The translations under genes were made by a program, and so were the position numbers. Of a stretch of 32,000 nt of DNA, positions 12,050 through 28,536 are shown piece by piece. The DNA is from Nostoc punctiforme PCC 73102 (lineage in GTDB: Bacteria; Cyanobacteriota; Cyanobacteriia; Cyanobacteriales; Nostocaceae). Numbering within the stretch: position 1 is the first letter of the stretch; each line of letters begins with the position of its first letter. The notes beneath the pieces are model-generated. The model had not been told where the DNA came from. It searched no databases and saw only the letters and a program-made list of their open reading frames with translations. The stretch spans positions 120,001-152,000 of the forward strand of contig NC_010631.1 in NCBI RefSeq assembly GCF_000020025.1. Direction: 5' to 3'.

Positions 12050-12071
12050 AATTATAGATATAGGTTGAAAA

Positions 12072-12326: not shown

Positions 12327-12367
12327 CTCTCTTTAAACTCCCTGCATTACTCCTGACTCTAAAATAT

Positions 12368-15300
12368 ATGCGCGATCGCAAACTTAGTTTAACCACATTG
12401 ATCACTCTCATCTTGAGTGTTTCACAACCCATCGCAAATTTGCCTCCACTATTCCAAGCGTCGCAAGTATTAGCGCAAACGCCAGCGAATCGTAAAGCAG
12501 AAGCAGACCGATTGTTACAGCAAGGTATTGAGCAGCTTCAAAGCAGCCAATTTGAAGCCGCATTAGAATCTTGGCAAAAAGCACTGATGATTTATCGAGA
12601 CATTCAAGATCGTCACGGAGAAGCATCAGCCCTAATTAATTTAGGAACTATTTACCTTTACTTTAATAACAATACTAAAGCAATTGAATACTTTGAACAA
12701 AGTTTAGCCATTGCTAAAGAAAACAAATATTACAACGCTCAAATTGCGGCTTTGGGCAGTTTAGGAGAAATTTATAATTCATTGGGAGACTACAAAAAAA
12801 CAATTGAGTACCATCTTTCTCGCTTAGAGGTTACAAGAAAAATAAAAAATCGATTAGCAGAGAAAGATACGTTACAAGATTTAGCAGAAGCTTACCTAGC
12901 AATGCAAAATTACCCTCAGGCAATAGAAGCCTTAGAAAATTATTTAGTCATTTCACAAAAACTTAAAGATCGTGAAGGAGAAAAGTATGCTCTAGGCTCT
13001 TTAGGAATTTATTATTACTCATCAGGAAACCATGCTAAAGCGATTGAGTATTATCGACAACCTTTAGCAATGGAGTTTTATCAACAAAAATTAATCACAG
13101 CACGAAAAAATAAAAATCGGCAGGTAGAAGCAAGTGCAATTGGGATTATTGCTATTGTTTATGATGCTTTAGGAGATAACACAAAAGCAATTGAATACTA
13201 CGAGGAGCGAATCAAAATTGCGCGTGAACTTAAAGATAAAGAAAACGAAGGACATTATCTTGCTAATCTTGGTTATGCTTACTTAAAAGTCAATCATTAC
13301 AGTAAAGCAGTTGAATCTGCACAAAAAGGTTTAGAAATTGCCAGGGAACTCAAAAACTTCCAAAAACAGGCAGTATGTCTGAGGGTTTTAGGTGAATCAT
13401 ACTCTGGGCTGAATGACAATAAGCAAGCCAACTATTATTATCAGCAATTATTGGCTCTATCACAAGATAAAAAAGATATACCTGATGAAATAGAAATATT
13501 AAGTTCCTTAAGTATTACTTATCGTGAACTTGGATATTATACACAAGCAATAGAATTTGCACAAAGACATTTGTTAATTGCACGAAAACTAAACGACAAA
13601 ATACAGCAGGCAGAAGCACTCACAAATTTAGGAGCAGTTTATAATGATTTAGGCAATTATATCCAAGCCATAGAATATCATAAAGAAAGTTTAAAAATTG
13701 CACAAGAAATTAAATCAATTACTCATGAAGCTAATTCTTTGGGAGAATTAGGGATTGCTTATTTTGATATTAATGATTATGTTAAAGCACTTGATTACTA
13801 TCAACAATTTTTAGCTATAGCCCAAAAACTCAAAGATAAACAAAATGAAGGAATTGCTTTAAGTGAATTAGGTCTTGTTTATGACCAAATAGACGACCAT
13901 AAAAAAGCTATTAATTATTATCAGCTATCTTTAGCTATTGCACGAGAACTTAAAGAAACTCTCCTAGAGGCAAATACTTTAATGAATCTAGGTAGAGCCT
14001 ATATATCTTTGGGAAACTATACAAAAGCAATTGAGTATACACAACAAGGTCTATTTTTAAGCAAAAAGATTAATTATCCTTTAGGAAAAGGATTTGGATC
14101 TACAAATTTAGGACTAGCTTTGTATAGAACTGGTAAACTAGCAGAAGCTGAAAAAGTTTTGGTTGATGGAATTCAAGTTTGGGAATCTTTGCGCTCAGGA
14201 CTTGGGAATAACGATATTCATAAAGTTTCAATTTTTGATAAGCAAGCAAGCATCTACCCTATACTGCAACAAGTTTTAATTGCTCAAAATAAAAATGATG
14301 AGGCTCTAGAAATTGCTGAAAGGGGGCGTTCTAGAGCGTTGTTAGACTTATTAAACTCACGCTTATCTAACAACAATTCCACTCAGTCATTCCAACTCAA
14401 TTTCCAGCAACCTACACTATCACTGCTACAACAAATTGCCAAACAGCAAAAAGCGACACTTATTGAATACTCTATTATTGCTGATAATTTTAAAATTCAG
14501 GGTAAACAAGTAACTTATGAATCAGAACTCTATATCTGGGTAATCAAACCCGCAGGTGAAGTTACCTTCCGCAAAGCTGACCTGAAACCCCTGTGGCAAA
14601 AAGAAAACTCAACCCTTGGCAATCTTGTTATCACCAGTCGTAACTCTATCGGTGCAACAAGTACACCTTTTCGCGGTGCTGTTGATGTAGTTGGTAAACC
14701 CAATGCACCCAAAGCCAAAAATAATTTAAAGCGTCTACACGAATTATTAATCAACCCCATCGCTGACTTATTACCCAAAAATTCTAACGATCACGTTATC
14801 TTCATTCCCCAAAGTAGCCTATTCCTCGTCCCCTTCGCCGCATTACAAGACGCAGACGGTAAATACCTAATTGAAAAACACACTATTCTCACATCACCAT
14901 CAATTCAAGTTTTAGATTTAACCCACAAACAGAAACAACGGACAGGCACAAAACCGATAGAAGGAAAAGATACGCTGATTGTTGGTAATCCAATGATGCC
15001 TTTTCTAGCACCAAAAATCGGCGAAACTCCGCAACAATTAATTTCTTTACCTGGTGCAGAACTTGAAGCAAATGCAATTAGCAAATTACTCAAAACCGAA
15101 CCTCTGATCGGCAACAAAGCAACAGAAGCAACTATAGTCAAGCGTTTACCCCAAGCGCGATTTATTCATTTAGCAACACACGGCATATTTGATGATATCC
15201 AAGGATTAAATAGTGGAATTGCTTTGACTCCATCGGGTAAAGAGGATGGATTATTAACAGCCTCGGAAATCCTCGATCTGAAGCTAAATGCCGAATTAGT

Positions 15301-15580
15301 CGTGTTAAGCGCTTGTGACACCGGACGCGGAAGGATTTCTGGGGATGGGGTAATTGGTTTATCTCGTTCCTTAATTAGTGCTGGTGTCCCCAGCGTCTTA
15401 GTATCGCTGTGGTCGGTTCCAGATACGCCTACAGCACTATTAATGACGGAATTTTATCAAAATCTTCAAAAGAGCCAAGACAAAGCGCAAGCACTGCGAC
15501 AGGCGATGCTGACGACGATGAAAATTAATCCGAATCCCGTTGATTGGGCAGCTTTTACTCTCATTGGCGAAGCTGAGTAG
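12368..15580 (+). CDS. TPR-repeat + CHAT protease (1070 aa) with N-terminal leader
   Basis: Starts ATGCGCGATCGC (MRDRKLSLTTLITLILSV...QVLAQT). It has a long, internally divergent TPR array. The CHAT motifs are HLATHG and LSACDTG, and it ends WAAFTLIGEAE. Confidence 0.93.
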   Translation: MRDRKLSLTTLITLILSVSQPIANLPPLFQASQVLAQTPANRKAEADRLLQQGIEQLQSSQFEAALESWQKALMIYRDIQDRHGEASALINLGTIYLYFNNNTKAIEYFEQSLAIAKENKYYNAQIAALGSLGEIYNSLGDYKKTIEYHLSRLEVTRKIKNRLAEKDTLQDLAEAYLAMQNYPQAIEALENYLVISQKLKDREGEKYALGSLGIYYYSSGNHAKAIEYYRQPLAMEFYQQKLITARKNKNRQVEASAIGIIAIVYDALGDNTKAIEYYEERIKIARELKDKENEGHYLANLGYAYLKVNHYSKAVESAQKGLEIARELKNFQKQAVCLRVLGESYSGLNDNKQANYYYQQLLALSQDKKDIPDEIEILSSLSITYRELGYYTQAIEFAQRHLLIARKLNDKIQQAEALTNLGAVYNDLGNYIQAIEYHKESLKIAQEIKSITHEANSLGELGIAYFDINDYVKALDYYQQFLAIAQKLKDKQNEGIALSELGLVYDQIDDHKKAINYYQLSLAIARELKETLLEANTLMNLGRAYISLGNYTKAIEYTQQGLFLSKKINYPLGKGFGSTNLGLALYRTGKLAEAEKVLVDGIQVWESLRSGLGNNDIHKVSIFDKQASIYPILQQVLIAQNKNDEALEIAERGRSRALLDLLNSRLSNNNSTQSFQLNFQQPTLSLLQQIAKQQKATLIEYSIIADNFKIQGKQVTYESELYIWVIKPAGEVTFRKADLKPLWQKENSTLGNLVITSRNSIGATSTPFRGAVDVVGKPNAPKAKNNLKRLHELLINPIADLLPKNSNDHVIFIPQSSLFLVPFAALQDADGKYLIEKHTILTSPSIQVLDLTHKQKQRTGTKPIEGKDTLIVGNPMMPFLAPKIGETPQQLISLPGAELEANAISKLLKTEPLIGNKATEATIVKRLPQARFIHLATHGIFDDIQGLNSGIALTPSGKEDGLLTASEILDLKLNAELVVLSACDTGRGRISGDGVIGLSRSLISAGVPSVLVSLWSVPDTPTALLMTEFYQNLQKSQDKAQALRQAMLTTMKINPNPVDWAAFTLIGEAE

Positions 15581-15620
15581 GTTTTTAAAGTTATCTCGTA
15601 ACCTGAAAAGTGCTGTACTA

Positions 15621-15651
15621 TTTTGCATAACCTCACACAACCCAGAAATAC
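15621..15651 (+). promoter_or_regulatory. Shared promoter-like motif, copy 4 (upstream of the orthocaspase gene)
   Basis: ttttgcataacct-cacacaacc-cagaaatac. It ends 46 nt before the ATG at 15698. Confidence 0.5.
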
Positions 15652-15697
15652 AATCCTTTAAAGCGATTTGTGCCAATAAATAATAAATAAAATCATA

Positions 15698-17989
15698 ATG
15701 TCTAACATCAAACGCCGTCATTTTCTCCAATTTTCTGCTTCCACTCTCGCAATGTTAGGCTTGAGCCAGTTCGACATCATGCAACAAGCCAACAGCGTAG
15801 GTAAAGTCCTCGCTCAAAGTACAGGCCGCAAACTAGCGCTACTAGTGGGTATTAATGATTATCCTGCAAGCAATGGTTTAGATCCTCTCAAAGGTTGTGA
15901 GAATGATGTCAAATTGCAGGAATACTTACTAATTCACCGCTTTGGCTTCAAACAAGAGGATATTCGCATTTTGCTTAACCAACAAGCCACCCGTCAAGGC
16001 ATCCTCACAGCTTTTGAAAACCATCTAATTGCTCAAGCCAAGCGTGGGGATGTGGTATTATTCCACTACTCTGGACACGGTTCCCAGGTACAAGACCCCG
16101 ATCGCGATTCACCGGATGGACTCAACAGCACGCTTGTTCCTATAGATAGCCCTTTACCAACAGGATTTCCAGCCTTCGGCGGTGCAGTAAAAGATATCAT
16201 GGGACATACGCTATTTTTACTCATGTCTGCGTTAAAAACAGATAACGTCACCTTTGTGCTTGACAGCTGTTTTTCTGGTGGTGGTACGCGGGGAAATCTG
16301 CGGGTGCGATCGCGTTCTGGCGGTGAAAAATTGCAACCTAGTCAAGAAGAATTAGACTATCAGCGTCAATGGCTAAATAAATTGGGGCTTTCACAACAAG
16401 AATTCATTCAAAAACGCCGTCAAAACGTTGCTAAAGGAGTCGTTATCACCAGCGCCAAACGCGATCAATACGCCGCCGATGTTCCTTTTTCGGGTTTCCA
16501 TGCAGGGGCGTTTACCTACTCGCTAACTCAGTATCTTTGGCAGCAAACTGGCAATGAATCTGTCAACAGAGCGATCGCTAATATTGGTCGCAGTACGAAA
16601 GAATTAGCTAGCGAAAATGGTAACGATCAAGACCCAGAATTTGAGTCGAACCTCAGCGAAGAAAATGCCAACACACCTATCTATTTCATCCCTGTCCAGG
16701 CTATCCCAGCTGAGGCTGTAGTCACGCAAGTAACAGAGAACCAAGCACAGTTATGGCTGGGTGGAATAGATTCGCAAAGCTTAGAAGCTTTCAACAGTAA
16801 CTCTGTATTCTCAATAGTGGATGGTCTGGGTAATGAAATCGGACAGGTGCAACTACAATCTCGTCAAGGATTAGTCGGCAGAGGTACGCTGAAATACACA
16901 ACCTCCAAGGGAAAATTACACCCAGGAAATTTATTGCAAGAACGCATCCGCATCATTCCTAGAAATGCAACTTTAAAAATTGGTATTGATGAATCTTTAG
17001 ACAACAAAACTGCCCAGCAGGCAATACAAGCGATGAAAGCACTCAAGCGCGTCGAACCCAAATCTTTAACAAAAGAAGAATTACAATATATCTTTGGGCA
17101 GATGACAAAGACCAAACATCAAGAGTTGCAGAAAAAAGGAGTATCCAAGCTGCCAGTAGTGGGTAGTTTTGGTTTATTTTTACCAAGTCAAGACCAAATT
17201 ATTCCTGCGTCTTTTGGTGCAGCTAGCGAACCCATAACTGAAGCAGTAAAGCGTTTACAACCAAAATTCAAGTCGCTGTTAGCTGCGAGAGTGATCAAAC
17301 AGATTCTGGGAAATACAAATTCATCACGCCTCAACGTCACAGTTTCTATGAATATTGCTGGTAGCAATGAGCTTTTGGCTGAAACTTTCCCGATTCGCGG
17401 TGTAGCTAAAAAACCTCAACAGCCAAATTCCTCAACACCAGTTTCGTCTATTAAGTTTTCTGATGCTGGGTTACGTCAACTACCTGTGGACACCCAGATT
17501 GCTTTCCAAATTAAAAATAATGAGTCTCAACCACTTTACGTCAGTATTTTAGTGATTGATGCCGAAGGCGAAATGACAATTATTTTTCCTAATAAATGGT
17601 CAGACTCAGAAAATGCTGCTTTGGTAGAGGCAAAACAAACACAGTTAATCCCTCAAGCTGATGATGAATTTACACTTACCATAGTTACGCCCTTGGGAGT
17701 TTCAGAAGCATTAATCATTGCCAGTACCACCCCGCTAAAAACTGCTCTCCAAGCATTACAAACAATTGCTAGTAGGTCAACAGACACAAAAAGTCGAAAT
17801 GTTCCTCTCCCTGTTACTAATGAACTGTTAGATGTCACCAATAATTTACTAGATGACTTAGATGCAGGTACTCGTAGCGGCAATAGCGTCAATAACATAC
17901 AATTACCATCGAGCGATCGCGGTGTTGATACTACAAAATTAGCTGCAATGGCGATCGCTTTTGAGGTAATTGCATCATCCAGCAGCTAA
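15698..17989 (+). CDS. Orthocaspase / peptidase C14-like protease with twin-arginine (Tat) signal and a C-terminal DUF4384-like domain
   Basis: The N-terminus KRRHFLQFSASTLAMLGL matches the Tat pattern RR.FL. The caspase fold is indicated by LALLVGINDY, HYSGHG (His codon 16076..16078) and LDSCFSGG (Cys codon 16268..16270). The C-terminal block ...IAFQIKNNESQPLYVSILVIDAEGEMTIIFPN resembles DUF4384. Confidence 0.88.
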   Translation: MSNIKRRHFLQFSASTLAMLGLSQFDIMQQANSVGKVLAQSTGRKLALLVGINDYPASNGLDPLKGCENDVKLQEYLLIHRFGFKQEDIRILLNQQATRQGILTAFENHLIAQAKRGDVVLFHYSGHGSQVQDPDRDSPDGLNSTLVPIDSPLPTGFPAFGGAVKDIMGHTLFLLMSALKTDNVTFVLDSCFSGGGTRGNLRVRSRSGGEKLQPSQEELDYQRQWLNKLGLSQQEFIQKRRQNVAKGVVITSAKRDQYAADVPFSGFHAGAFTYSLTQYLWQQTGNESVNRAIANIGRSTKELASENGNDQDPEFESNLSEENANTPIYFIPVQAIPAEAVVTQVTENQAQLWLGGIDSQSLEAFNSNSVFSIVDGLGNEIGQVQLQSRQGLVGRGTLKYTTSKGKLHPGNLLQERIRIIPRNATLKIGIDESLDNKTAQQAIQAMKALKRVEPKSLTKEELQYIFGQMTKTKHQELQKKGVSKLPVVGSFGLFLPSQDQIIPASFGAASEPITEAVKRLQPKFKSLLAARVIKQILGNTNSSRLNVTVSMNIAGSNELLAETFPIRGVAKKPQQPNSSTPVSSIKFSDAGLRQLPVDTQIAFQIKNNESQPLYVSILVIDAEGEMTIIFPNKWSDSENAALVEAKQTQLIPQADDEFTLTIVTPLGVSEALIIASTTPLKTALQALQTIASRSTDTKSRNVPLPVTNELLDVTNNLLDDLDAGTRSGNSVNNIQLPSSDRGVDTTKLAAMAIAFEVIASSSS

Positions 17990-18341
17990 CTCTTGTATGT
18001 TTGGCGTGGATAAATTTGTGATTTTAAGAAGATTTTGGACAGGTTGTCCAAGTTTACCTTCCAAAAACGTCCAAAAAATAACATAAAGGAAAGCTAAATA
18101 AACAACATATTTATAAAAATGTAATTTACGCCTGATGTGAATTAAAAACATCTCTCATACCATAAGGGTTGCTAGATTCGCTCCAAATCATTATTTTGGG
18201 ACTAACTACGAAATTACAAGGGTTTCAAGACTTAATTTACATTAAACGTAATTTATTTAATTACACTAATCTGGTGGCTGGTGTTTATCCTTTCAATCAG
18301 GATCTAAAAGTAGTAAACGTCGATTAGGAGAACCGACAAGC

Positions 18342-19550
18342 GTGGCAAGAAACTGGAAGTGTGATGGTCAGCCCAAAAATGGCAAAATCTACTTAAATCA
18401 AAATCCTACTGGCAACCACGAACCCTATGAAAATTACGGCTTAACCTGTGTAATATGTAATTTGCCAAAAGAGGCAATGGACAATAACCGTCAATTGCCA
18501 AAATGGGTCAAACCTGCTGCTATAACTGGTGGTGCTGTTTTAACTGTCCTTATTGCTGCCTCAATATTTATAGATAAACCTTGTCCAACAGGTCAGCAAA
18601 AAATCAATAGTATTTGTTTGGCACTTTCTCCGCCTGAGAAAGAAACTCCTACCAAGCCAGTCTCTGATCCTCCCGTTAATATCTACCACACTTTAGCTGA
18701 AGTGCCTAACGTTCCCAACGGAATCATTAGATACGGCGGTTCTACAAGCTTTGCGCCGCTAAGGACTTCAGCAATAGTAGCGCTGATTATGCAAGGTCAT
18801 CCGGGATTTAAATTAGTCTACACTTCGCCACCGCCAGGAACCCAGGCTGGGTCTGGTAGCGGGATCAAGATGCTGATAGAAGGTCAACTAAATTTTTCCC
18901 AGTCTTCGCGGCCCTTAAGAGACGAAGAGTATGAAAGCGCAAAAACACGCAATTTCACTCTGGAACAGCAACCTATTGCCATTGACGGAATTGCTTTTTA
19001 CGTTCATCGTGATTTGGCTATCCCAGGTTTAACGGTATCTCAGATTAAGGATATATACACTGGGAGAATCACGAACTGGAAGCAAGTGGGTGGCCCCGCT
19101 ATTGAAATTACGCCTTTGAGCCGTGACCCTAATGATGGTGGTACTCCTGAATACTTTCAAGAAAAAGTGTTGGCGAAGGAACCATTTGCTTCATCTGTAA
19201 AACCTTATGTAATAGACACTACAACTGCTATCCGAAAGGTAGCTCAAACTCCTGGCGGGATTAGTTATGCCACTGCTTCAGAAGTTTGCCCCCAAACTTC
19301 AATTAAGCCTTTGTCAATTGCAAAACAGGCTAATCAGGGTTTTGTACCTGCTTGCATCGAAAAGCTCGTGAATAAAAATGATTTTGCGAAAGACATCTAC
19401 CCTCTGACTAGACGACTGTTTGTTGTGATTAAACGCGAACGCGATCGCACGCTGGATGAGCAGGCTGGTGTAGCTTATGTCAACTTACTTTTAAGTGATG
19501 AAGGTCAAAAATTAGTAGACCAAGCTGGTCTAGTGCCAATTCGCAACTGA
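18342..19550 (+). CDS. PstS-like (type 2 periplasmic binding protein) domain protein with a Cys-containing N-terminal tail and a single TM anchor
   Basis: GTG start 10 nt after AGGAGA (18326..18331). The TM segment is AAITGGAVLTVLIAASIFI. PstS-family blocks are IRYGGSTSFAPL, FSQSSRPLRDEE, IAIDGIAFYVH and LTVSQIKDIYTGRITNWKQVGG. No pstCAB genes are adjacent. Confidence 0.8.
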   Translation: MARNWKCDGQPKNGKIYLNQNPTGNHEPYENYGLTCVICNLPKEAMDNNRQLPKWVKPAAITGGAVLTVLIAASIFIDKPCPTGQQKINSICLALSPPEKETPTKPVSDPPVNIYHTLAEVPNVPNGIIRYGGSTSFAPLRTSAIVALIMQGHPGFKLVYTSPPPGTQAGSGSGIKMLIEGQLNFSQSSRPLRDEEYESAKTRNFTLEQQPIAIDGIAFYVHRDLAIPGLTVSQIKDIYTGRITNWKQVGGPAIEITPLSRDPNDGGTPEYFQEKVLAKEPFASSVKPYVIDTTTAIRKVAQTPGGISYATASEVCPQTSIKPLSIAKQANQGFVPACIEKLVNKNDFAKDIYPLTRRLFVVIKRERDRTLDEQAGVAYVNLLLSDEGQKLVDQAGLVPIRN

Positions 19551-19578
19551 AATAAATAATAACTCCTTAAAATCCCAG

Positions 19579-20475
19579 ATGAGTAAATTTCGTCGCAGTT
19601 TCTGGCTATATCCTTTATTTCAGATTCCGTTAATCGTGTTTGGAGTTTGTTTAGTTGCGACTGTTTTGTGTTCACTTTTAGGGTTGGGTAGACCTAGTGT
19701 AGCAGTAGCGATCGCTCTGGATATGAGCAACAGCACCTACGAAGGTAAATCATTCAACGCACCTGATACTGTGATGGCTCAAGAAGTGGCGGCGGTGCGA
19801 TCGTATATTGAGCAAAACTCCCAGCAATTAAAATCTCCTAACAATATCCAAATTTTTGGGTTTGGCGATCGAGTCATTCCCTTAACTAATTCCTTCACAT
19901 CAGATAGACAAAAGTTAGAAGCTGAGTTGAATTTAGCTCTAGCAAACCCTAATTTGTCATCTCAGATTGGTACTGAAACAAATCTCAGTCAATCCATTGA
20001 TCAAGGTACAAAACTTCTCAGTAATATTCAAGATCGTTGCCGTGAATTATTGCTCGTCACTGATGGAGTCGCTGAGGTGATACCATCAGTTTTGACTCAG
20101 GCAGTAGCTCAAAAAGTCAAAATCAATGCTGTGGTGGTAGGAGCAAATGCTCCCCAAATCAAGTCAGCTACCGACATCACCAACGGAATTTATCTATCCG
20201 GTGAATCGAACAATCTGCAAATATTTTTTAAAGATATATTTTTTACTAGCTTTAATAGCAATGTCAAATGGGTTTATTTCTGGCGAGGTTGTACCTGGAT
20301 TGCTTTGATGTGGCTAATTATCTTGCCTTTAGATAAATGGGTTTTTCAAGGGTTAATTAACTTACCAATGAACCTTAGTGGTCAGTTAGCTTTAGGCAAT
20401 GCTTTATTTTGGACTGTTGTTACTCCCCTAATTCTTTGGCAATTATCTGGCTTACCTTTTTTCTCAAATTGTTGA
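19579..20475 (+). CDS. Membrane protein with von Willebrand factor A (vWA) domain
   Basis: N-terminal TM after KFRR. The MIDAS motif DMSNS is at 19720..19734, followed by GTETNL and LLVTDG. Two or three C-terminal hydrophobic helices follow. It starts 28 bp after the preceding gene. Confidence 0.8.
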   Translation: MSKFRRSFWLYPLFQIPLIVFGVCLVATVLCSLLGLGRPSVAVAIALDMSNSTYEGKSFNAPDTVMAQEVAAVRSYIEQNSQQLKSPNNIQIFGFGDRVIPLTNSFTSDRQKLEAELNLALANPNLSSQIGTETNLSQSIDQGTKLLSNIQDRCRELLLVTDGVAEVIPSVLTQAVAQKVKINAVVVGANAPQIKSATDITNGIYLSGESNNLQIFFKDIFFTSFNSNVKWVYFWRGCTWIALMWLIILPLDKWVFQGLINLPMNLSGQLALGNALFWTVVTPLILWQLSGLPFFSNC

Positions 20476-20570
20476 GGCAGAAAGCAAAAGTTTTGAGTTA
20501 GCCATTAACAAATAATCAAAGGTAAATAAAGCTTCATTTGTTGAAGTTAAAAAATTAAAAAGAGAAAATT

Positions 20571-23500
20571 ATGGCAGCAGTTGAAGAAAAAAGTATGGTT
20601 CCCACGGTGTTGGTGGGTGTGGGTGGTACAGGAACAGAAGTCTTGTCACGGGTAAGAAGATTAATAGAAGAAGCCTATGGCAGTTTGAATAATTTTCCCA
20701 TTATTAGTTTTTTTAGTATTGACACAGATAAAGATTATAAAGTTAGTAATCCAGAGGTAACAGGATCGCCATTAAAGGATCATGAAAAACATTGGGCAAG
20801 TGTCAGTGGTAGAGAAGTCAACGACATTATGTCCAATATGGAAAAGTATCCTTGGATTGAGTCTTGGTTTCCTAGAGAATTAGAGCGCAATATTGGAGCA
20901 TTGGAAGCTGGTGCAGGTCAAATTCGTGCCTGTGGTCGCTTTGCCTTTTTTTATAACTATCACAAGATTAGACAACGGTTTTTTGAAGCGTGCGATCGCG
21001 TCAAAGGTCACGAAAGTTTGATGTTAGAGAAGTACGACATCAGAGTTAGTAGTGGTGGGTTGAATGTTTTCGTCGTTGGCTCAATTTCTGGTGGGACTGG
21101 CAGTGGTATGTTAATTGACATCGGCTACTGCTTACGTAACTGGCTGAAAGGTCAGGGAAGCCCTTTAATTACAGCAATTATCCCAATGCCTAATGCTTTT
21201 GCCAGCATTAATGTAGGCGATCGCGTTCTCGCTAATGGCTACGCTGCTCTGATGGAATTGAGTTACTTTTCTGACTACAGAACTGAGTATATATCTCAAT
21301 TTAGCGCTGGTTTAGTGGATGAGGTTCGCAATAAATTACCTCCCTTTGACTTTACCTATTTAGTTGGCACCAAGAATGGCGAAAGTGAGTTTAATCTCGA
21401 TCAAATTCGAGAAATGATTGCTCAAAACGTTTTTTTGGATCTTACCTCTGATTTTGCTCCACACAAACGCTCTATTCGAGACAACATTAAAGGAGCTTGG
21501 GCGCAGGCCGATCCAGGTGGTAGAGGCTATCCCAAAAACTTCATGAGCTTTGGTCTTTCCACAATTGAAATTCCTATCGCTCAGATTCACAATTCGCTAT
21601 CCAATCGGTTGAGTATGGATTTAGTAAATTGGTGGCTGAATGAGTCGGTGTCACTCCCACCTAATGTTTTGGATTTAATCCAAAAAGATATTCTTAAGGG
21701 AATGCGACTGACAGAAACCGAATTGATTGCAGACCTCTCTTCGGCAGCAGATAAATCTTATATCTCAGAAGTATCTGGTTGGATTAATAGTATCCGTAAT
21801 GAAATCGCTAGCGATAATAAATTGCAATGTACCCATCAAGGTGTCAATATGATTGGTACAGAGCGAGGCAAAATTTTGAGATTCCTGGATGATTATCTCA
21901 TCCCCAAAGTTGATGAATATCGTGCCAATCACTTGCGAGAATTAAGCGCCGATGAACGAACACATGGTGACTTTCTCCAAAAAATGTACGATAACCGGGA
22001 TCGCATTATCCAACAAGGCAGACAAGCAATTGAGGCAGAGTTTTACAAGATTATGCGCGATCGCAATCTGGGCCCCAAATTTGCTGATGCTTTTATTACT
22101 AACGTCCGTCAGCTATTTGCCAATGCTTCAGAAAAGTTCCGCCGTGAATCAGAAAAAGTCTGGCAACCTAACGAAATTAATCGGCAGCAGCAGTATGAAG
22201 CCGCACTGCAAGATATTAATCAATTTAAAAACTTGTTTGGTCTAACTAAACAAGCCCAAATGGAAAAGTATTGCGAGGAAGCGCTTACAGGTTTAGAAAG
22301 TAGCTTTATTGCAATCATTCAACACAAAAGTCGCACTTTGTCTCTACAGGTGATTGAGCGAATTTTAGAGCATCTGGATCGTATGGAGCAGCGATTAGCG
22401 CGGTTTAATCAAAAGCTGCGACAACTACGCGATGACTTTAAACAAAAAGCTGACAAAGAAGCAGATAGTGCTGATGCTTTGAAAATTAACGGGTTTAAGC
22501 TTTATAACCGCGAAGAACTTAATCTACTTTATCAGGACATGATTGAGCAATTAGCGGGAGCCATTCAAGGTAGCAAAAGCCGCTATGAAATCGGACTAAA
22601 CCAGATTTGCACCACAATGTCGGAAGATATTTTGCGAGATGCTAGCCCTTTGTGGAAACAGACTCGCACTGCCGGGGAAGTGATGCAACTCTTTGATATT
22701 ACTCAACTACAAGAGGTGAATTACGAGGATTTTAAAGAAATAGTTGCCGTCAAAACTCAGTTAGTAGTGAAAAAATCTCCTCAAGAGAGCCGATTAAACC
22801 AAGATTTAGCAGCGTGCGATCGCCTTTTCAAAAGCTTGCAAAACGATCCAGAGGCAATTCGCAGTAACATCCGCATTGCTTATCAAAGATCCCAACCGTT
22901 AATCTTACTATCCCAGGCAGTTCTCTCAGGTGCAGATGCCGGGTTTACTCCCGCCTTAAATACCAAAGTTGCAATCGTGGGAGGTCGCAACAGCAGCGAT
23001 CCCACTGCGATTAAACTAATCCCTTATTTACAAGAAAGAGTGGGAAATGCCGATTCTATCACCCCTCTGGGACAACAAGAACAGCATCGAATTGTGTTTG
23101 TCCAAGAAAAAGGCGGTTTTTCCCTGCGCTGTATAGATGGTATTAGAGAGTTGCGGCAATCTTATCAAGACTGGAAAGGACAATCTATTGAAGCCAAGCG
23201 ATCGCAACTCAGAGGTGAAACCAAAGACCTCCCTGTTCCCGTGCATATTCAAAAAGAACCTCCTTTCTGGGATGTGTTTCCCGAAAACCCCGAAGTTTTT
23301 AAACTAGTAGTGCAAGCTAGAGCATTAGGTGTTTTGCGGCTAGAAGAAAATCGCAACACCGAAGAAAAGGTGATTCGCTACACCCGCGAAACTGTAATCG
23401 GCTCAGAGAATGTAGAAATTGCTTCTAGTTGGGAAGAAGCGGTGCAAGTATTAGAGGTGCTGGCGTGTCGCCCTGACAAAGAAGCAATTGGGCGTCAAGT

Positions 23501-23897
23501 GTCGGCAAAACTAGCCGATGCTGACCAAGCCCAAGACAAACTAGACTTGTACGACCAGTTCATAAACTATTTGAAGCAGCGAGAAGCAGAACTAGAAAAA
23601 ATTGGGGGTAGCGATAGCCCAGATTACAAACGCGAAGCCACAATTATTAAAGATTTAATCACTTCTGAGAACCTGCAACTAAATAATAAAAGCAAACCCC
23701 CAGTTATTCAGCTTGTAATTTCTCCTGAGAAGCCGCTAGTTGATCTTATTGAGGAGCCTCACATATCAAATATTTCCCCTGTTGAGCCTCCTTTTATGGC
23801 AGGTGCAAATGTTTTTTGTACCGAGTGTGGTGAGCAAAACCCGGCCCGGTCTAAATTTTGCTACAACTGCGGGACTCGATTAGTTAAACTTAATTGA
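20571..23897 (+). CDS. Tubulin/FtsZ-superfamily-like GTPase (Tubulin_2-type) with long helical extension and C-terminal zinc ribbon
   Basis: The T1-like loop GVGGTGT is at 20616..20636. The tubulin signature GGTGSG is at 21090..21107. The remaining roughly 750 aa are rich in charged, coiled-coil-like sequence. The C-terminus has CTEC-x10-CYNC (23818..23871). An alternative start at the ATG at 20595 is possible. Confidence 0.75.
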   Translation: MAAVEEKSMVPTVLVGVGGTGTEVLSRVRRLIEEAYGSLNNFPIISFFSIDTDKDYKVSNPEVTGSPLKDHEKHWASVSGREVNDIMSNMEKYPWIESWFPRELERNIGALEAGAGQIRACGRFAFFYNYHKIRQRFFEACDRVKGHESLMLEKYDIRVSSGGLNVFVVGSISGGTGSGMLIDIGYCLRNWLKGQGSPLITAIIPMPNAFASINVGDRVLANGYAALMELSYFSDYRTEYISQFSAGLVDEVRNKLPPFDFTYLVGTKNGESEFNLDQIREMIAQNVFLDLTSDFAPHKRSIRDNIKGAWAQADPGGRGYPKNFMSFGLSTIEIPIAQIHNSLSNRLSMDLVNWWLNESVSLPPNVLDLIQKDILKGMRLTETELIADLSSAADKSYISEVSGWINSIRNEIASDNKLQCTHQGVNMIGTERGKILRFLDDYLIPKVDEYRANHLRELSADERTHGDFLQKMYDNRDRIIQQGRQAIEAEFYKIMRDRNLGPKFADAFITNVRQLFANASEKFRRESEKVWQPNEINRQQQYEAALQDINQFKNLFGLTKQAQMEKYCEEALTGLESSFIAIIQHKSRTLSLQVIERILEHLDRMEQRLARFNQKLRQLRDDFKQKADKEADSADALKINGFKLYNREELNLLYQDMIEQLAGAIQGSKSRYEIGLNQICTTMSEDILRDASPLWKQTRTAGEVMQLFDITQLQEVNYEDFKEIVAVKTQLVVKKSPQESRLNQDLAACDRLFKSLQNDPEAIRSNIRIAYQRSQPLILLSQAVLSGADAGFTPALNTKVAIVGGRNSSDPTAIKLIPYLQERVGNADSITPLGQQEQHRIVFVQEKGGFSLRCIDGIRELRQSYQDWKGQSIEAKRSQLRGETKDLPVPVHIQKEPPFWDVFPENPEVFKLVVQARALGVLRLEENRNTEEKVIRYTRETVIGSENVEIASSWEEAVQVLEVLACRPDKEAIGRQVSAKLADADQAQDKLDLYDQFINYLKQREAELEKIGGSDSPDYKREATIIKDLITSENLQLNNKSKPPVIQLVISPEKPLVDLIEEPHISNISPVEPPFMAGANVFCTECGEQNPARSKFCYNCGTRLVKLN

Positions 23898-24152: not shown

Positions 24153-25558
24153 TCAGTTAAAGCTAAAAAGCTGATTATTAATGTGAAATTTCGGAGCTTG
24201 TACTTGTTTTCCAGTACTTCTGTGTTTAGGCTTTTTAGAAGAAAACTTTGATACAGGTTTTTTCACAACCCTGGGGTTAGTACGGTGAACTCGTTTCGGT
24301 AACAACGTATCCAGATCTCTACGGTTAACCAATCGAAAAAAGGGGGAATTCTTCTGGTGGTAAATGTTGAAATTTAGGAATAGCACGACAATGACTCGTA
24401 ATGTTCCTGTAAAACTTAGACGCAACGGAGACAGAAGCATTAGTTGCTGCTTGAAATATTAACACTCAAACTGACCAATGTCCCAACAACCAACCATACA
24501 CTTCTTGTACAACTTCTCGTAGTTTTTGGGAACGGACATGGGTTTTTCGACCCAAAAGATGGATTTTCAATTCATCACTGGTATTTTCTACTTCCCAACG
24601 TTGATGATATTCCTCAGCTAACAACTCTGCCGGGAATTTTTCAATGTCTAACAGGCTAGTAATCAAGCGATATATCACTTGTTTTTCTGGGTTATCAGGA
24701 TGCTCAATTATGTACTCGATAACTCTTACTGATATTGGCTGACAATCCTTTTTTCGTAACTTTCCAGATGGGTAAATCGATGACAGATAAGAACCATCTG
24801 GCAACGATTTTTCTGTAAAAAATTTAACATTGGCAGGAATTCTCCCTAAATAGTCACAACCCTTAGATACTGTTGCGTGTACCATTGCATACGAATGCAA
24901 TCCCCTATCCCACATCAACAACATTCCTGATGTTACCGAGCGTAATAATTTTAATGCCCGCACTCGTTCTCCGATGCGGTATGGACACTCTTATTGCATC
25001 AAATATGATGTGTGTTCCTGCTTCTACCAATATGACTAATCTGACTTTGGGAAAAGCTGCTTGTGTGCCTGGACGACTACCAGGACGACCAAAAACTCTC
25101 GCATTTTCATGACTATCTGGAACATCAAAACAAGTACCGTCAATCACCACAATTCTCAGCCCATTTAGAAATGCTCCTATCGTTTCACCAGTCGCCATTG
25201 GTTGTACTAACTGGTGAAATAATTGGCTCATCACTCCTGCTCCCAATCTTGCCGAGCTTGAGTAATTGCTGACTTACAAGGTACTCGCCAGTATTTACCT
25301 ACCTTCACCCATCCCTCAGAAAGACCATCAATCAAGTTTTTAAGTATATCCCACATTGAGTCTTTTGACCATAGACTCATTGCAATTACCAGACTTACCA
25401 CTAATTGCGCTGGTAGCGGGAAGCGAAGCTATGCCGCAGGCTTATCGCTTGCGCTCCTCTTCAGTTTGGGTATTAGTGATCGCTTCTTCGATTGCAGTTG
25501 CTGGAATCGCCATCTCGATTGCTTTAAGCACATCACCACTTCGTATCTCAGGAGACAT
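24153..25558 (-). pseudogene. IS4-family DDE transposase broken by frameshifts and in-frame stops
   Basis: Pieces lie in different frames. They are MSPEIRSGD...EERKR*, LPAQLVVSLVIAMSLW..., RLGAGVMSQ..VIDGTCFDVPDS.., MRALKLL..LLMWDRG..YHQRWEVENTSDELK (the Y-2-R-3-E-6-K signature), HWSV*(TGA)VLIFQAA.. and SPLRLSFTG..NPRVVKK. Confidence 0.85.
25409..25450. repeat. Short GC-rich dispersed repeat, copy inside the IS transposase gene
   Basis: gctggtagcgggaagcgaagctatgccgcaggcttatcgctt resembles 28391..28433. It supplies stop codons in the transposase reading frames. Confidence 0.6.
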
Positions 25559-26442: not shown

Positions 26443-27464
26443 ATGGGCTACCGTCTGAAGTACCTCATCCTTGCTACTGTAGGGCTTTCCTTTGCCCCCT
26501 TGTCTCCTCTTTCTCCCGTCTCTTTGTCTCCCTTGGTGGTGCAGGCGCAAACGACACAACAGCCTAGTCCTGAAGAAACAAACAGGGAGAAGGAACAACC
26601 CTCAACAATATTGGCTTTGTTTACAATAATCAAGGACAGTATGCCAAAGCTTTGGTAGCTTATCAGCAAGCTTTAGCTATTCGCAAACAAATCAATCAAA
26701 AAGCATTGGTAGGAGAAAGCCTCAATAACATTGGCTCTGTTTACGAAAATTTGGGACAGTACGATCAAGCATTGAAGTTTTATCAGCAAGCTTTAACTAT
26801 TCTCCAACAAATTGGCAGCAAGGTAGGTGAAGGAAAAACTCTGAACAATATTGGCTTTGTTTACAATAATCAAGGACAGTATGCCAAAGCTTTAAATTAC
26901 TATGTACAAGCTTTAACTATTCTTCAAAAAATTGGTGACAAAGCAGGTGGAGGTAAAACTCTCGATAATATCGGTGTGGTTTATGACAACCAGAGAGATT
27001 ATGCCAAAGCATTCGGATTTCATCAGCAAGCTTTAGCCATTTTCAAACAAATTGGTGATACAGCAGGTGAAGGCAAAACTCTTAATAATATTGGTGGGGT
27101 TTATTATAATCAGAAAGAGTATGCCAAAGCTTTGGAATTTTATCAGGAAGCTTTAGTTATTGTCAAACAAGTCGGTGATAAAGCGTCGGAAGGAACATTT
27201 CTCAATAATATTGGTTCTGCTTACGATAAATTAGGACAATATGAAAATGCTGAAAAAACGCTATTTACTGCAATTGAGATTTGGGAGTCTTTGCGAAAGA
27301 ACGAATTAACTGATGCTCAAAAAATTTCACTCTTTGAAATACAAGCCGAAACCTACCGTTTTCTGCAAAGGAGTCTGATTGCCCAGAATAAAATTAATTC
27401 TGCCTTAGAAGTGAGCGATCGCCTCATTCCCCAAACCAAACATCGTAGGCGCAGCCTGTCGTAG
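26443..27464 (+). pseudogene. Frameshifted, 3'-truncated paralogue of the TPR-CHAT gene at 1..1707 (leader + TPR only, CHAT lost)
   Basis: The ATG at 26443 follows GGAG. The leader MGYRLKYLILATVGLSFA...VVQAQT is in frame 1. The TPR frame opens only after the TGA at 26571 (track ORF 26652..27464). Nucleotide homology to 1..534 stops at the HIP1 site 27415..27422, inside ...ALEVSDR, where the paralogue continues into CHAT. Confidence 0.65.
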
Positions 27465-28433: not shown

Positions 28434-28459
28434 TTGTTCACTCTTGCACAGCGGCTCGA

Positions 28460-28490
28460 ATTTGCATATCCTTCAGCAGGTGAGAGATAT
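28460..28490 (+). promoter_or_regulatory. Shared promoter-like motif, copy 3 (upstream of TPR-CHAT 28537)
   Basis: atttgcatatcct-tcagcaggt-gagagatat. It ends 46 nt before the ATG at 28537. Confidence 0.55.
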
Positions 28491-28536
28491 ATTATATCTC
28501 CTTAAACTCGCTGCATTACTGCTGACTCTAAAATCT

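What the first reader, a model, noticed from the sequence alone, without database searches (positions are those of the whole stretch)
18342..23897. Candidate new module: anchored PstS-like binding protein + membrane vWA protein + giant tubulin-like GTPase with zinc ribbon
Seen: three co-oriented genes are separated by only 28 and 95 bp, after a 352-bp AT-rich gap, so they look like one operon. Gene 1 has a PstS-type binding domain, but there is no pstC/pstA/pstB nearby. Unusually, it carries an N-terminal Cys-containing tail (WKCDG...CVIC) plus one TM helix, where a lipoprotein or signal peptide would be expected. Gene 2 is a vWA domain with an intact MIDAS motif (DMSNS) between an N-terminal TM (positive residues KFRR before it) and C-terminal TMs. 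Its vWA domain is therefore predicted to face the periplasm together with the PstS-like domain. Gene 3 has no export signal. It carries the tubulin signature GGTGSG, about 750 aa of helical sequence and a C-terminal CxxC-x10-CxxC ribbon. Inference: this is a trans-envelope device in which two periplasm-facing ligand or adhesion domains are coupled to a cytoplasmic, GTP-dependent, possibly polymerising protein. It sits directly next to an exported orthocaspase and among CHAT proteases that lack any NTPase of their own. It could therefore be the nucleotide-dependent switch of the island. I vaguely recall comparative-genomic reports linking divergent FtsZ-like GTPases to vWA membrane proteins, but I cannot verify that here. 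I do not recall a PstS-like partner or a caspase/CHAT context being described.
Basis: partly seen in the sequence, partly recalled or inferred. Interest (0 to 1): 0.85.

Follow-up and report, generated by a model that had tools for sequence, protein, structure and literature searches.

The report
Membrane sensor module around a tubulin-like GTPase
These three genes are a real, conserved cyanobacterial operon; two of them were already published in 2010 as a "vWA + FtsZ-like" pair of unknown function, and the apparently new part is that the third gene is a membrane-anchored solute sensor whose sensing domain is swapped between lineages, which gives a testable lead to what this tubulin relative does.

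Summary

**Already known.** Genes 2 and 3 are Npun_AF097 and Npun_AF098 of Nostoc punctiforme. Makarova & Koonin (2010) list them by name as a vWA/FtsZl1 (Pfam Tubulin_2) pair.

**Not described in the literature searched.** Gene 1 is a conserved third partner.
- 58 species-level cyanobacterial loci could be evaluated. 39 have the vWA membrane gene upstream, 37 have a gene with gene 1's N-terminal tail, and 34 have both.
- The tail has an invariant Cys/His/Cys/Cys pattern (a likely zinc knuckle) followed by one TM helix.
- The periplasmic domain is swappable. It is PstS-like here and in 8 other loci, and a LivK/ANF-receptor-type binding protein in 34.
- One metagenomic gene fuses the tail directly to gene 2's membrane scaffold, next to the tubulin-like gene. 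This ties the parts together and places the vWA domain in the periplasm.

**Not supported.** The caspase/CHAT link fails: caspase occurs in 1 of 78 loci and a CHAT domain in 2 of 78. No pstCAB lies near gene 1 or the paralogs sampled.

**Best reading.** A periplasmic solute sensor and a MIDAS-vWA scaffold recruit or regulate a cytoplasmic tubulin-like GTPase. The output is unknown.

**Verdict.** A new variant of a known kind, of moderate interest.

The parts
17990..18341 (.). AT-rich intergenic region upstream of gene 1. It is the presumed promoter region and contains a terminator-like hairpin at 18034-18052 just after the caspase gene.
   Evidence: 352 bp, GC 0.324 against 0.409 for the window. 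The hairpin is, where site counts do not exceed shuffled controls. The Pho-box pattern is not enriched. AGGAG lies 10 nt before the GTG start.
18342..19550 (+). Gene 1 (presumably Npun_AF096; the tag is inferred, not seen): cytoplasmic Cys/His tail, one TM helix, then a periplasmic S-type PstS-like binding domain. Predicted membrane-anchored solute sensor.
   Evidence: PBP_like_2 E=2.9e-32. TIGR02136 scores 146 bits, below its 206.6 cut-off. The best PDB relatives are S-type PstS proteins 4q8r, 4gd5 and 9l8j. A 100% match is named for Nostoc punctiforme.
18342..18491 (+). N-terminal tail of gene 1 (aa 1-50): predicted cytoplasmic C7-H26-C36-C39 zinc knuckle.
   Evidence: W5, C7, G9, H26, C36 and C39 are invariant across 47 diverse proteins. 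61 representative clusters contain it, nearly always at the extreme N-terminus. A tail HMM finds 46 ORFs in the loci, in 41 of which the hit is strong (E<=1e-6), and only this one in the window.
18513..18572 (+). Single TM helix of gene 1 (about aa 58-77), followed by a conserved C81-P-x-G-Q-x-K-x4-C92 loop.
   Evidence: Read from the sequence. Nearly all tail proteins have one hydrophobic segment at aa 50-95.
18723..19502 (+). Periplasmic-binding-protein domain of gene 1 (aa 128-387).
   Evidence: Pfam coordinates and alignment to C. perfringens PstS.
19579..20475 (+). Gene 2 (Npun_AF097): three-TM scaffold carrying a periplasmic MIDAS vWA domain. TM1 is about aa 8-36, vWA about aa 41-222, TM2-TM3 about aa 229-289. 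C154 and the C-terminal C298 are invariant.
   Evidence: Listed as COG2304 vWA in the 2010 table. Alignment A3 shows the conserved residues. AF2 and Foldseek confirm the fold. The family has 281 members, all about 300 aa. The TM-only variants lose both cysteines.
20571..23897 (+). Gene 3 (Npun_AF098): FtsZl1/Tubulin_2 GTPase. The tubulin core is aa 13-352 (nt 20607-21626), the long helical or coiled-coil and alpha/beta region is aa ~434-1032, and the zinc ribbon is aa 1082-1104 (nt 23814-23882).
   Evidence: Pfam. Listed as FtsZl1 in the 2010 paper. AF2 pLDDT 77.6. Foldseek top hits are CetZ, tubulin and TubZ. T1 G18-G19-T20-G21 and T4 S173-G-G-T-x-S-G179 are invariant in 67 sequences.

Best explanation
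This is the cyanobacterial form of the vWA/FtsZl1 (Tubulin_2) operon, with a third conserved component.

**Gene 1** is a single-pass membrane receptor. It has a periplasmic Venus-flytrap binding domain, here of the low-affinity 'S-type' PstS kind, so the ligand is probably phosphate or a similar oxyanion. It is anchored by one TM helix and exposes a roughly 45-residue Cys/His/Cys/Cys zinc knuckle to the cytoplasm.

**Gene 2** is a three-TM scaffold with its N-terminus in the cytoplasm. It holds a MIDAS vWA domain in the periplasm, probably tied to its own C-terminus by a disulfide.

**Gene 3** is a cytoplasmic, GTP-binding tubulin/FtsZ-fold protein with a long helical extension.

**Proposed working.** The tail of gene 1 and the cytoplasmic N-terminus and loop of gene 2 form a docking site that recruits or regulates assembly of the tubulin-like protein at the inner membrane. 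The periplasmic PBP and vWA domains are exchangeable input modules that report solute or envelope status.

**Shown:** domain identities, folds, conserved synteny, modular swapping and the fusion protein.

**Inferred:** topology, zinc binding, the disulfide, the ligand, physical contacts, polymerisation and the direction of signalling.

The cellular output is unknown. The candidates are membrane or envelope remodelling, or a membrane-associated scaffold. The neighbouring caspase and CHAT genes are not part of the module.
For: **Identity**
- Gene coordinates and lengths equal Npun_AF097/AF098 in Additional file 5 of Makarova & Koonin 2010, offset by 120,000.
- The 100% protein matches are named for Nostoc punctiforme and lie on a 354,564-bp contig.

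**Family**
- Tubulin_2 E=3.4e-115.
- Tubulin/CetZ/TubZ fold over 350-380 columns.
- vWA fold at E=7e-11, with MIDAS conserved.

**Synteny**
- 58 loci were evaluable. 39 have the scaffold gene upstream, 37 a tail gene, 34 both and 16 neither.
- The median gap from scaffold gene to tubulin gene is about 130 bp.

**Modularity**
- The same tail and TM helix are joined to Peripla_BP_6/ANF_receptor in 34 loci and to PBP_like_2 in 9.
- The same PstS-like ectodomain also occurs behind a kinase fragment, a classical zinc ribbon or a bare TM anchor. None of these is near pstCAB.

**Fusion**
- P0288 is tail + gene 2 N-terminus/TM1 + TM2-TM3, with a Tubulin_2 gene 15 bp downstream.

**Topology**
- C154 and C298 are invariant, and both are lost in the three vWA-less variants.
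- The K/R tally gives mild support for an N-in orientation.
- P0274 adds an OmpA-like peptidoglycan-binding domain after the PBP.

**Other**
- The closest solved relatives of the PBP domain are S-type PstS proteins with micromolar phosphate affinity. One of them, Sll0540, is an orphan (PMC13614923).
- Gene 3 is highly conserved: 66% mean column identity over 1100 aa.
Against: - There is no experimental datum on any FtsZl1 protein. Polymerisation is uncertain: the 2010 authors could not identify T6-H7/T7, and I did not assign a catalytic T7 residue.
- The tail is not exclusive to this module. Tail-TM-PsbP_2 heads a trypsin/COP23 cluster with no tubulin gene, and P0072 is solitary.
- 16 of 58 loci have a solitary gene 3 ortholog, so the protein can work without these partners.
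- The fusion is a single metagenomic ORF cut by the contig end.
- The Fisher test (p~2e-7) is not corrected for phylogeny. ORF calling was crude, and the loci were chosen by similarity to gene 3.
- Co-transcription is untested. The promoter and terminator scans are at chance level.
Confidence: 0.5

Rival explanations
1. It is a biological-conflict (defence or abortive-infection-like) system of the kind Kaur et al. 2020 proposed for tubulin + vWA neighbourhoods. Extracellular domains would sense an invader or envelope damage. The tubulin-like protein would form an NTP-dependent assembly that triggers dormancy or death, possibly together with the adjacent caspase and CHAT proteases.
For: - Kaur et al. 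(PMC7159879) describe GAP1-N2/DO-GTPase systems centred on tubulins with C-terminal helical domains and a TM protein with an extracellular vWA, enriched in multicellular bacteria.
- A zinc-ribbon-TM-PstS-like paralog sits in a DO-GTPase2 cluster.
- A kinase-PBP paralog lies next to a NACHT protein.
- Here the module is plasmid-borne and lies among five CHAT proteins, a subtilase and a caspase.
- Trypsin-like proteases recur near the module in 8 loci.
Against: - No PADLOC hit for genes 1-3.
- No DO-GTPase, GAP1 or recognisable effector in the window or among the recurrent neighbour clusters.
- Caspase and CHAT adjacency is not conserved.
- Gene 3 is slowly evolving and widely distributed in cyanobacteria. 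The 2010 authors describe it as vertically inherited there, and solitary orthologs sit beside housekeeping genes. This is unlike typical defence genes.
- No relatives on viral contigs.
Confidence: 0.2
2. It is an inside-out adhesion or anchoring device. The cytoplasmic GTPase polymer would control or position periplasmic vWA/PBP domains that bind envelope components such as peptidoglycan or outer-membrane proteins. This would be a membrane-envelope tether rather than a solute sensor.
For: - MIDAS vWA domains are classical protein-adhesion modules (established knowledge, summarised).
- Other FtsZl1 operons carry OmpA/MotB-like peptidoglycan binders.
- One tail-PBP protein carries an OmpA-like C-terminal domain.
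- The periplasmic domains can be deleted while the scaffold and tubulin-like gene persist.
Against: - Two unrelated classes of small-molecule-binding PBP occupy the same position. That fits ligand sensing better than fixed adhesion.
- The PstS-type binding motifs are largely retained.
- There is no direct evidence for either direction of signalling.
Confidence: 0.15
3. Gene 1 is an ordinary phosphate-uptake binding protein whose adjacency to the vWA/FtsZl1 pair is accidental, or it serves a transporter encoded elsewhere.
For: - It is annotated as a PstS-family phosphate ABC transporter substrate-binding protein.
- It has the PBP_like_2 domain, and its best solved relatives are PstS proteins.
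Against: - It scores below the TIGR02136 cut-off (146 vs 206.6 bits).
- It has an N-terminal cytoplasmic tail and a TM anchor instead of a signal or lipoprotein peptide.
- No pstCAB lies in the window or near 7 sampled relatives.
- The position is conserved across orders and can be filled by a different PBP class with the same tail.
- No Pho box is enriched.
Confidence: 0.04

Closest known systems
vWA/FtsZl1 operon (Makarova & Koonin 2010, Biol Direct 5:33; Pfam PF13809 Tubulin_2)
   Same: Genes 2 and 3 are literally listed there as Npun_AF097 (vWA) and Npun_AF098 (FtsZl1). The architecture is the same: an FtsZ-like N-terminus, a coiled coil and a helical C-terminal region. The vWA partner is membrane-associated with an intact MIDAS motif.
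   Different: - The paper's table starts the N. punctiforme entry at the vWA gene.
- A PBP neighbour appears once (Arthrospira, COG0683) and was dismissed as lineage-specific in the reply to a reviewer.
- Apparently new here: the conserved Cys/His tail, the swap between PBP classes, the vWA-less scaffold variants and the tail-scaffold fusion.
- Also added here: a fold-level match covering the whole tubulin core, which the 2010 authors could not align beyond H5.
GAP1-N2 / DO-GTPase 'GTPase-centric conflict systems' with tubulin and vWA (Kaur, Burroughs, Iyer, Aravind 2020, eLife 9:e52696)
   Same: Both have a tubulin-superfamily protein with a C-terminal helical extension, and a multi-TM protein with an extracellular vWA. 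Both show zinc ribbons and membrane proximity as recurring themes, and a preference for multicellular bacteria.
   Different: - Those systems are defined by DO-GTPase and GAP1 proteins and FNIII components, and are reported from Firmicutes and Actinobacteria. None of these components is in the window or among the recurrent neighbours here.
- The PBP-tail partner is not described for them.
- Only a paralogous ZnR-TM-PstS-like protein was seen in a DO-GTPase2 cluster.
S-type PstS phosphate-binding proteins (C. perfringens PBP-1 4Q8R; Synechocystis SphX and the orphan Sll0540, 9L8J)
   Same: The PBP_like_2 fold is the same. Serine replaces the aspartate of D-type PstS ('SSR' motif). The Arg...Gly-Thr anion-binding motif is largely kept. 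Like Sll0540, the gene is not linked to a pst operon.
   Different: - Gene 1 is anchored by an N-terminal TM helix with a cytoplasmic zinc-knuckle tail.
- It has a conserved Cys-x10-Cys loop after the TM helix.
- It has a one-residue insertion and a Ser-to-Gly change in the SGT motif.
- It scores below the TIGR02136 cut-off.
- It is syntenic with the vWA and tubulin-like genes.
FtsZ, TubZ, CetZ and tubulin (characterised members of the superfamily)
   Same: The GTPase and activation-domain fold is the same (Foldseek probability 1.0), and the T1 and T4 nucleotide-binding loops are conserved.
   Different: - Sequence identity is 10-14%.
- Several insertions have low model confidence.
- About 750 extra residues are present.
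- No T7 catalytic residue was assigned.
- The protein is not a division protein, and no filament has ever been shown.
Venus-flytrap ectodomain receptors (ANF receptor, mGluR, BvgS-type sensor kinases). This is a working analogy only.
   Same: A periplasmic or extracellular PBP domain is tethered by a TM segment to a cytoplasmic signalling part. The type-I version here matches the ANF_receptor Pfam family.
   Different: The cytoplasmic part is only a roughly 45-residue zinc knuckle with no enzymatic domain. The presumed output is a tubulin-like GTPase encoded two genes downstream.

Membership tests
FtsZl1 / Tubulin_2 (PF13809) | Match to the family profile above its gathering threshold | tested here: met
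   385.5 bits against a cut-off of 27, E=3.4e-115, aa 13-352 covering profile positions 1-355 of 356.
FtsZl1 / Tubulin_2 (PF13809) | Tubulin/FtsZ nucleotide-binding loops: T1 GGTG and the T4 signature GGGTG(S/T)G | tested here: met
   T1 is G18-G19-T20-G21 and T4 is S173-G-G-T-G-S-G179, with S in place of the first G. Both are invariant in 67 sequences.
FtsZl1 / Tubulin_2 (PF13809) | Tubulin/FtsZ three-dimensional fold | tested here: met
   AF2 model with pLDDT 77.6. Foldseek against PDB: CetZ2 E=2.6e-4, CetZ1, beta/gamma-tubulin and TubZ; probability 1.0; 350-380 aligned columns; target-normalised TM-score 0.35-0.49.
FtsZl1 / Tubulin_2 (PF13809) | Architecture: N-terminal FtsZ-like domain, extended coiled coil, mostly helical C-terminal region (2010 definition) | tested here: met
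   DSSP on the model shows helices 467-496, 501-553 and 560-636, followed by mixed alpha/beta up to 1032.
FtsZl1 / Tubulin_2 (PF13809) | GTP hydrolysis and filament formation | not testable with these tools
   No biochemical data exist for any member. T6-H7/T7 were not identified by the family's authors.
vWA domain with MIDAS | DxSxS...T...D metal-ion-dependent adhesion site | tested here: met
   D48-M-S50-N-S52, with T53. D162 lies in 'LLVTDG'. These are invariant or nearly so in 34 and 53 orthologs.
vWA domain with MIDAS | vWA (Rossmann-like) fold | tested here: met
   AF2 pLDDT 84.2. Foldseek hits TFIIH p44/p34 vWA, BatB, vWF-A3, integrin I domains and ANTXR, E down to 7.2e-11, rmsd ~3 A over ~190 columns. 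Gene 2 alone is sub-threshold in Pfam, but 18 of 34 orthologs hit VWA_2.
vWA/FtsZl1 operon (Makarova & Koonin 2010) | vWA gene adjacent to and co-oriented with the FtsZl1 gene | tested here: met
   The gap is 95 bp on the same strand. The pair is listed in the paper's own table. It is conserved in 39 of 58 evaluable loci.
PstS phosphate ABC-transporter binding protein | Score above the curated PstS-family model cut-off | tested here: not met
   TIGR02136 scores 146.5 bits against a cut-off of 206.6. The equivalog models TIGR00975 and NF008171 are far below theirs.
PstS phosphate ABC-transporter binding protein | Genomic linkage to pstC/pstA/pstB | tested here: not met
   None is in the window or beside 7 sampled relatives.
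PstS phosphate ABC-transporter binding protein | Secreted or lipoprotein N-terminus | tested here: not met
   The N-terminus is a conserved 45-50-aa Cys/His tail followed by one TM helix. No dedicated signal-peptide predictor was available.
PstS phosphate ABC-transporter binding protein | Phosphate-binding pocket residues | tested here: inconclusive
   The alignment to 4q8r keeps G-S-x-G, S-R and R...G-T, with a Ser-to-Gly change and a 1-aa insertion. The pattern is S-type as defined in PMC13614923. No binding data exist.
GAP1-N2 / DO-GTPase conflict system (Kaur et al. 2020) | Presence of DO-GTPase and GAP1 components | tested here: not met
   No such domains were found in the window ORFs scanned with Pfam. 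No PADLOC hit. No GTPase cluster appears among the recurrent neighbours. The loci were not scanned exhaustively with the DO-GTPase profiles.
   tblastn finds caspase in 1 of 78 loci and a CHAT domain in 2 of 78; two further hits match only the TPR part. One more caspase lies 4 kb from a PBP-Tubulin_2 pair. This is about what chance predicts in caspase-rich cyanobacteria.

The most novel reading that the evidence does not exclude
This would be a prokaryotic receptor-to-cytoskeleton coupling. Ligand binding by an exchangeable periplasmic Venus-flytrap domain, together with an integrin-I-like MIDAS vWA domain, is relayed across the inner membrane through a zinc-knuckle tail and a three-TM scaffold. 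The relay switches on GTP-dependent assembly of a highly divergent tubulin at the membrane. In effect this is an outside-in, nutrient- or envelope-gated cytoskeletal element, functionally analogous to integrin-cytoskeleton linkage.
Probability: 0.25. Interest if true: 0.85.

Novelty: new variant of a known kind. Interest (0 to 1): 0.52.

Why it matters
- FtsZl1/Tubulin_2 is one of the most divergent branches of the tubulin/FtsZ superfamily. It has had no known function since its description in 2010, and two competing guesses exist: membrane remodelling and conflict system.
- In cyanobacteria its operon regularly includes a membrane-tethered solute-binding receptor with a conserved cytoplasmic tail, and the sensing domain is interchangeable. 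That turns an open-ended question into concrete experiments on ligand-dependent localisation or assembly.
- The organism is genetically tractable, and in the 2010 family list it has a single copy, which appears to be plasmid-borne.
- The work also defines a previously unremarked small Cys/His domain. This domain heads a family of single-pass cyanobacterial membrane proteins with PBP, PsbP-like, COP23 and other ectodomains.

Tried and rejected
- **Source record:** megablast of the region against the plasmid collection found no match. The window's identity rests on the 2010 table and the 100% protein matches.
- **Defence families:** PADLOC gave nothing for genes 1-3.
- **Gene 3 versus PDB:** a single-sequence search found no FtsZ or tubulin. 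A structure model was needed.
- **Gene 2 versus PDB:** a profile search gave only weak vWA hits. This was settled by AF2 and Foldseek.
- **Transcription signals:** the promoter and terminator scans were at or below shuffled expectation and are uninformative apart from the hairpin after the caspase gene.
- **Pho box:** 61 matches against 65 expected.
- **Tail-ribbon pairing:** the idea that the gene 1 tail pairs with the gene 3 zinc ribbon was rejected on covariation.
- **Caspase/CHAT coupling:** rejected on synteny.
- **Tail specificity:** the idea that the tail is specific to the tubulin module was rejected by the PsbP_2/trypsin/COP23 cluster.
- **Literature:** the locus tags Npun_AF095-098 are mentioned nowhere.
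- **Viral contigs:** no relatives of gene 3.

Full report
**1. Observation**

The gaps are 352, 28 and 95 bp, and the 352-bp gap has 32% GC against 41% for the window.

- **Gene 1** has a PBP_like_2 domain (E=2.9e-32, aa 128-387). It scores below the curated PstS-family cut-off (146 vs 206.6 bits).
- **Gene 2** carries D48-M-S-N-S. Alone it is sub-threshold for vWA. 18 of 34 orthologs hit VWA_2. An AF2 model (pLDDT 84) matches TFIIH p44/p34, BatB, vWF-A3, integrin I-domains and anthrax-receptor vWA domains down to E=7e-11.
- **Gene 3** matches Pfam Tubulin_2 at E=3.4e-115 and a zinc ribbon at aa 1082-1104. GGTGSG is at aa 174.

**2. Identity and prior knowledge**

Tubulin_2 is the FtsZl1 family of Makarova & Koonin (2010, PMC2875224). 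Their Additional file 5 lists 'Nostoc punctiforme PCC 73102: 139579..140475 + 298 aa Npun_AF097 vWA; 140571..143897 + 1108 aa Npun_AF098 FtsZl1'. These are the coordinates of genes 2 and 3 plus 120,000.

The 100% protein matches are named for N. punctiforme and lie on a 354,564-bp contig. So the window is a plasmid segment of that organism, and two of the three genes are already published as a vWA/FtsZl1 operon, 'implicated in membrane remodeling'.

The N. punctiforme entry in that table starts at the vWA gene. PstS/COG0226 is never mentioned. One PBP neighbour (Arthrospira, COG0683, 536 aa, then vWA 298 aa, then FtsZl1) is listed. Reviewer G. Jekely used it to suggest a transport or signalling role. 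The authors replied that such genes occur in only one or a few related organisms.

Kaur et al. 2020 (PMC7159879) reinterpret tubulin + vWA neighbourhoods of Firmicutes and Actinobacteria as DO-GTPase/GAP1 'conflict systems'. They note a TM protein with an extracellular vWA. I found no experimental work on any FtsZl1 protein.

**3. Synteny**

A scan of one genome per species returned 78 loci encoding gene 3 relatives (55-96% identity), all cyanobacterial. ORF clustering and tblastn show a canonical co-oriented layout: [tail-TM-PBP] then [TM-vWA-2TM, ~300 aa] then [Tubulin_2, ~1100 aa].

58 loci, including the window, have at least 5 kb of upstream sequence:

| Feature | Loci (of 58) |
|---|---|
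| Scaffold gene upstream | 39 (36 with vWA, 3 without) |
| Gene with gene 1's tail | 37 |
| Both | 34 |
| Neither | 16 |

Fisher p=1.7e-7, not corrected for phylogeny.

Solitary orthologs occur in Microcystis, next to an RNase Z-like gene, and in Laspinema/Oscillatoria. Caspase is within 10 kb in 1 of 78 loci and a CHAT domain in 2 of 78. One further caspase was seen 4 kb from a PBP-Tubulin_2 pair. This is no more than expected, so the caspase/CHAT context of the window is local.

**4. What gene 1 really is**

Only the first ~45 residues of gene 1 are conserved in most loci. They form the motif W-x-C-D-G-x-P-K...H-x-P-x-E-N-x-G-P-D-C-x-x-C-G-L-P-K/R-E-A, followed by one TM helix.

An exhaustive search of 1.8 billion representative proteins with the 50-aa tail found 61 clusters, with the tail almost always at the extreme N-terminus. 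W5, C7, G9, H26, C36 and C39 are invariant across 47 of them, which suggests a C-H-C-C zinc knuckle.

Behind the TM helix the ectodomain varies:
- Peripla_BP_6/ANF_receptor type-I PBP, often with a TPR: 34 loci.
- PstS-like type-II PBP: 9 loci including the window. This is sometimes duplicated, and once carries an OmpA-like domain.
- Elsewhere in genomes: PsbP_2, COP23, or a coiled/low-complexity region.

Conversely, the PstS-like ectodomain subfamily also occurs behind a Ser/Thr-kinase fragment, a classical CxxC zinc ribbon (in a DO-GTPase2 cluster) or a bare TM anchor. pstCAB is never next to it.

Its closest solved relatives are S-type PstS proteins: 4q8r, 4gd5 and the orphan Sll0540, 9l8j. 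These bind phosphate with micromolar affinity (PMC13614923). Gene 1 therefore looks like a receptor ectodomain, not a transporter subunit. No Pho box is enriched upstream.

**5. Topology and physical coupling**

Gene 2 orthologs share several features:
- an N-terminal R-R-x-x-W-L-Y-P-L-F-Q-I-P-L motif;
- a conserved MIDAS site;
- two invariant cysteines, C154 in the vWA domain and C298 as the last residue.

In three loci, representing at least two independent events, the vWA domain is deleted and TM1 joins TM2 directly. The C-terminal cysteine is lost in all three. This is what a C154-C298 disulfide in the periplasm would predict.

The K/R distribution mildly favours an N-in orientation.

Most telling is a metagenomic ORF, P0288/L088. 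It fuses the gene 1 tail (E=8e-11) through a ~20-aa linker to gene 2's N-terminal motif and TM1 (E=4e-6), and then to TM2-loop-TM3 (E=1.6e-21). It has no PBP, no vWA and no terminal cysteine. A Tubulin_2 gene follows 15 bp downstream.

The fusion has three consequences:
- It links the tail functionally to the scaffold.
- It puts gene 2's N-terminus on the same, cytoplasmic side as the tail, and hence the vWA domain in the periplasm.
- It defines a minimal core of tail + three-TM scaffold + tubulin-like protein, with the periplasmic domains as optional inputs.

The caveat is that this is one contig-truncated ORF.

**6. Gene 3**

The AF2 model (pLDDT 77.6) gives only tubulin-superfamily proteins as top PDB matches: CetZ2/1, beta- and gamma-tubulin and TubZ. 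Probability is 1.0 over 350-380 columns. This extends the 2010 analysis, which could not align beyond helix H5.

The T1 and T4 loops are invariant. No T7 catalytic residue was assigned.

The rest of the protein is long helices (467-636) followed by alpha/beta regions. The small C-terminal module is a zinc ribbon in most orthologs, including solitary ones. It is SHOCT-like or GYF-like in others, with no covariation with the tail or vWA genes. The proposed tail-ribbon pairing is therefore unsupported.

Gene 3 is strongly conserved, at 66% mean column identity. It has no close relatives on viral contigs.

**7. Mechanism and rivals**

*Best reading (confidence about 0.5).* The module is a trans-membrane unit. 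A periplasmic solute sensor, here probably sensing phosphate or an oxyanion, works with a MIDAS-vWA scaffold. Through the zinc-knuckle tail and the scaffold's cytoplasmic elements, they recruit or regulate a GTP-binding tubulin-like protein at the inner membrane. The output is unknown.

*Rivals.*
- A conflict or defence system in the sense of Kaur et al. (about 0.2). The plasmid and CHAT/caspase setting, the DO-GTPase and NACHT contexts of paralogs and the recurrent trypsin-like proteases favour it. The lack of effectors, the absence of a PADLOC hit, the high conservation and the unconserved protease adjacency count against it.
- An inside-out envelope tether (about 0.15).
- An ordinary or accidentally adjacent PstS (about 0.04), essentially refuted.

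**8. Verdict**

The feature is real and conserved. It is a member of a known system, the vWA/FtsZl1 operon. It has an apparently undescribed conserved third component and a clear modular logic. It is not coupled to the caspase/CHAT island. I rate it a new variant of a known kind, of moderate interest, because it makes the long-unknown function of FtsZl1 experimentally approachable.

Noticed in passing
window 1-17989 and 28444-31602: The region is dense in protease-type signalling proteins. There are five CHAT-domain proteins: 1-1707 (partial, TPR-CHAT), 1756-3201, 3224-9742 (a 2172-aa WD40-CHAT giant), 12368-15580 and 28444-31602 (both TPR-CHAT). There is also a subtilase (9884-12049) and an orthocaspase with DUF4384 (15698-17989), whose N-terminus looks like a Tat signal (RRHFLQF).
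   Followed up: partly
window 24466-25246 (- strand): Two overlapping ORFs (165 and 113 aa) look like a split DDE_Tnp_1 transposase, that is, an IS remnant or pseudogene just downstream of gene 3.
   Followed up: no
window 27477-28064 (- strand); also L016, L069, L079, L080, L082, L087: An Uma2-family putative endonuclease gene is here. Uma2 genes recur near gene 3 orthologs (cluster c6: 13 genes in 12 sources, 11 loci plus the window) and near several PBP paralogs. This may only reflect how abundant Uma2 is in cyanobacteria.
   Followed up: no
window 26652-27464: A 270-aa TPR-only ORF resembles the N-terminal part of the TPR-CHAT proteins but has no CHAT domain. It may be a truncated paralog.
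   Followed up: no
L087:7001-14441 (Oscillatoria sp. SIO1A7): A separate co-oriented cluster is headed by a tail-TM-PsbP_2 protein. It is followed by Trypsin-PsbP_2, COP23, two more trypsin-like proteases and another COP23, with no tubulin or vWA gene. The same COP23 + trypsin pair lies next to the tubulin module in L008, L013, L055 and L058. This hints at a wider network of tail-headed membrane proteins, COP23 and exported proteases.
   Followed up: partly
L082:2351-8275 (Kamptonema sp. UHCC 0994): A PstS-like paralog with a classical CxxC...CxxC zinc ribbon and a TM helix is the last gene of a cluster that also holds a 741-aa protein, DO-GTPase2 (PF19993) and a 467-aa protein. So the same ectodomain is attached to a different GTPase system.
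   Followed up: partly
L083:190-6727: A Ser/Thr-kinase fragment-TM-PstS-like fusion (P0092) lies about 1 kb upstream of a 1234-aa NACHT/STAND protein.
   Followed up: no
L003:9450-9773, L037:9479-9856, L038:9489-9866: These are vWA-less versions of gene 2 (107-125 aa). TM1 is joined directly to TM2-TM3, and the otherwise invariant C-terminal Cys is lost.
   Followed up: yes
L073:8265-9566 (Calothrix parasitica NIES-267): A 433-aa ORF is inserted between the PstS-like gene and a 5'-truncated tubulin-like gene, and no vWA gene is present. The module appears to be disrupted in this genome.
   Followed up: no
L043-L054 (Crocosphaera and relatives), upstream of the tail-PBP gene: A ferritin-like gene and an FTR1 iron-permease gene lie directly upstream of, and co-oriented with, the type-I tail-PBP gene in 6-7 loci. 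This could be a lineage-specific link to iron, or simply conserved local gene order.
   Followed up: no
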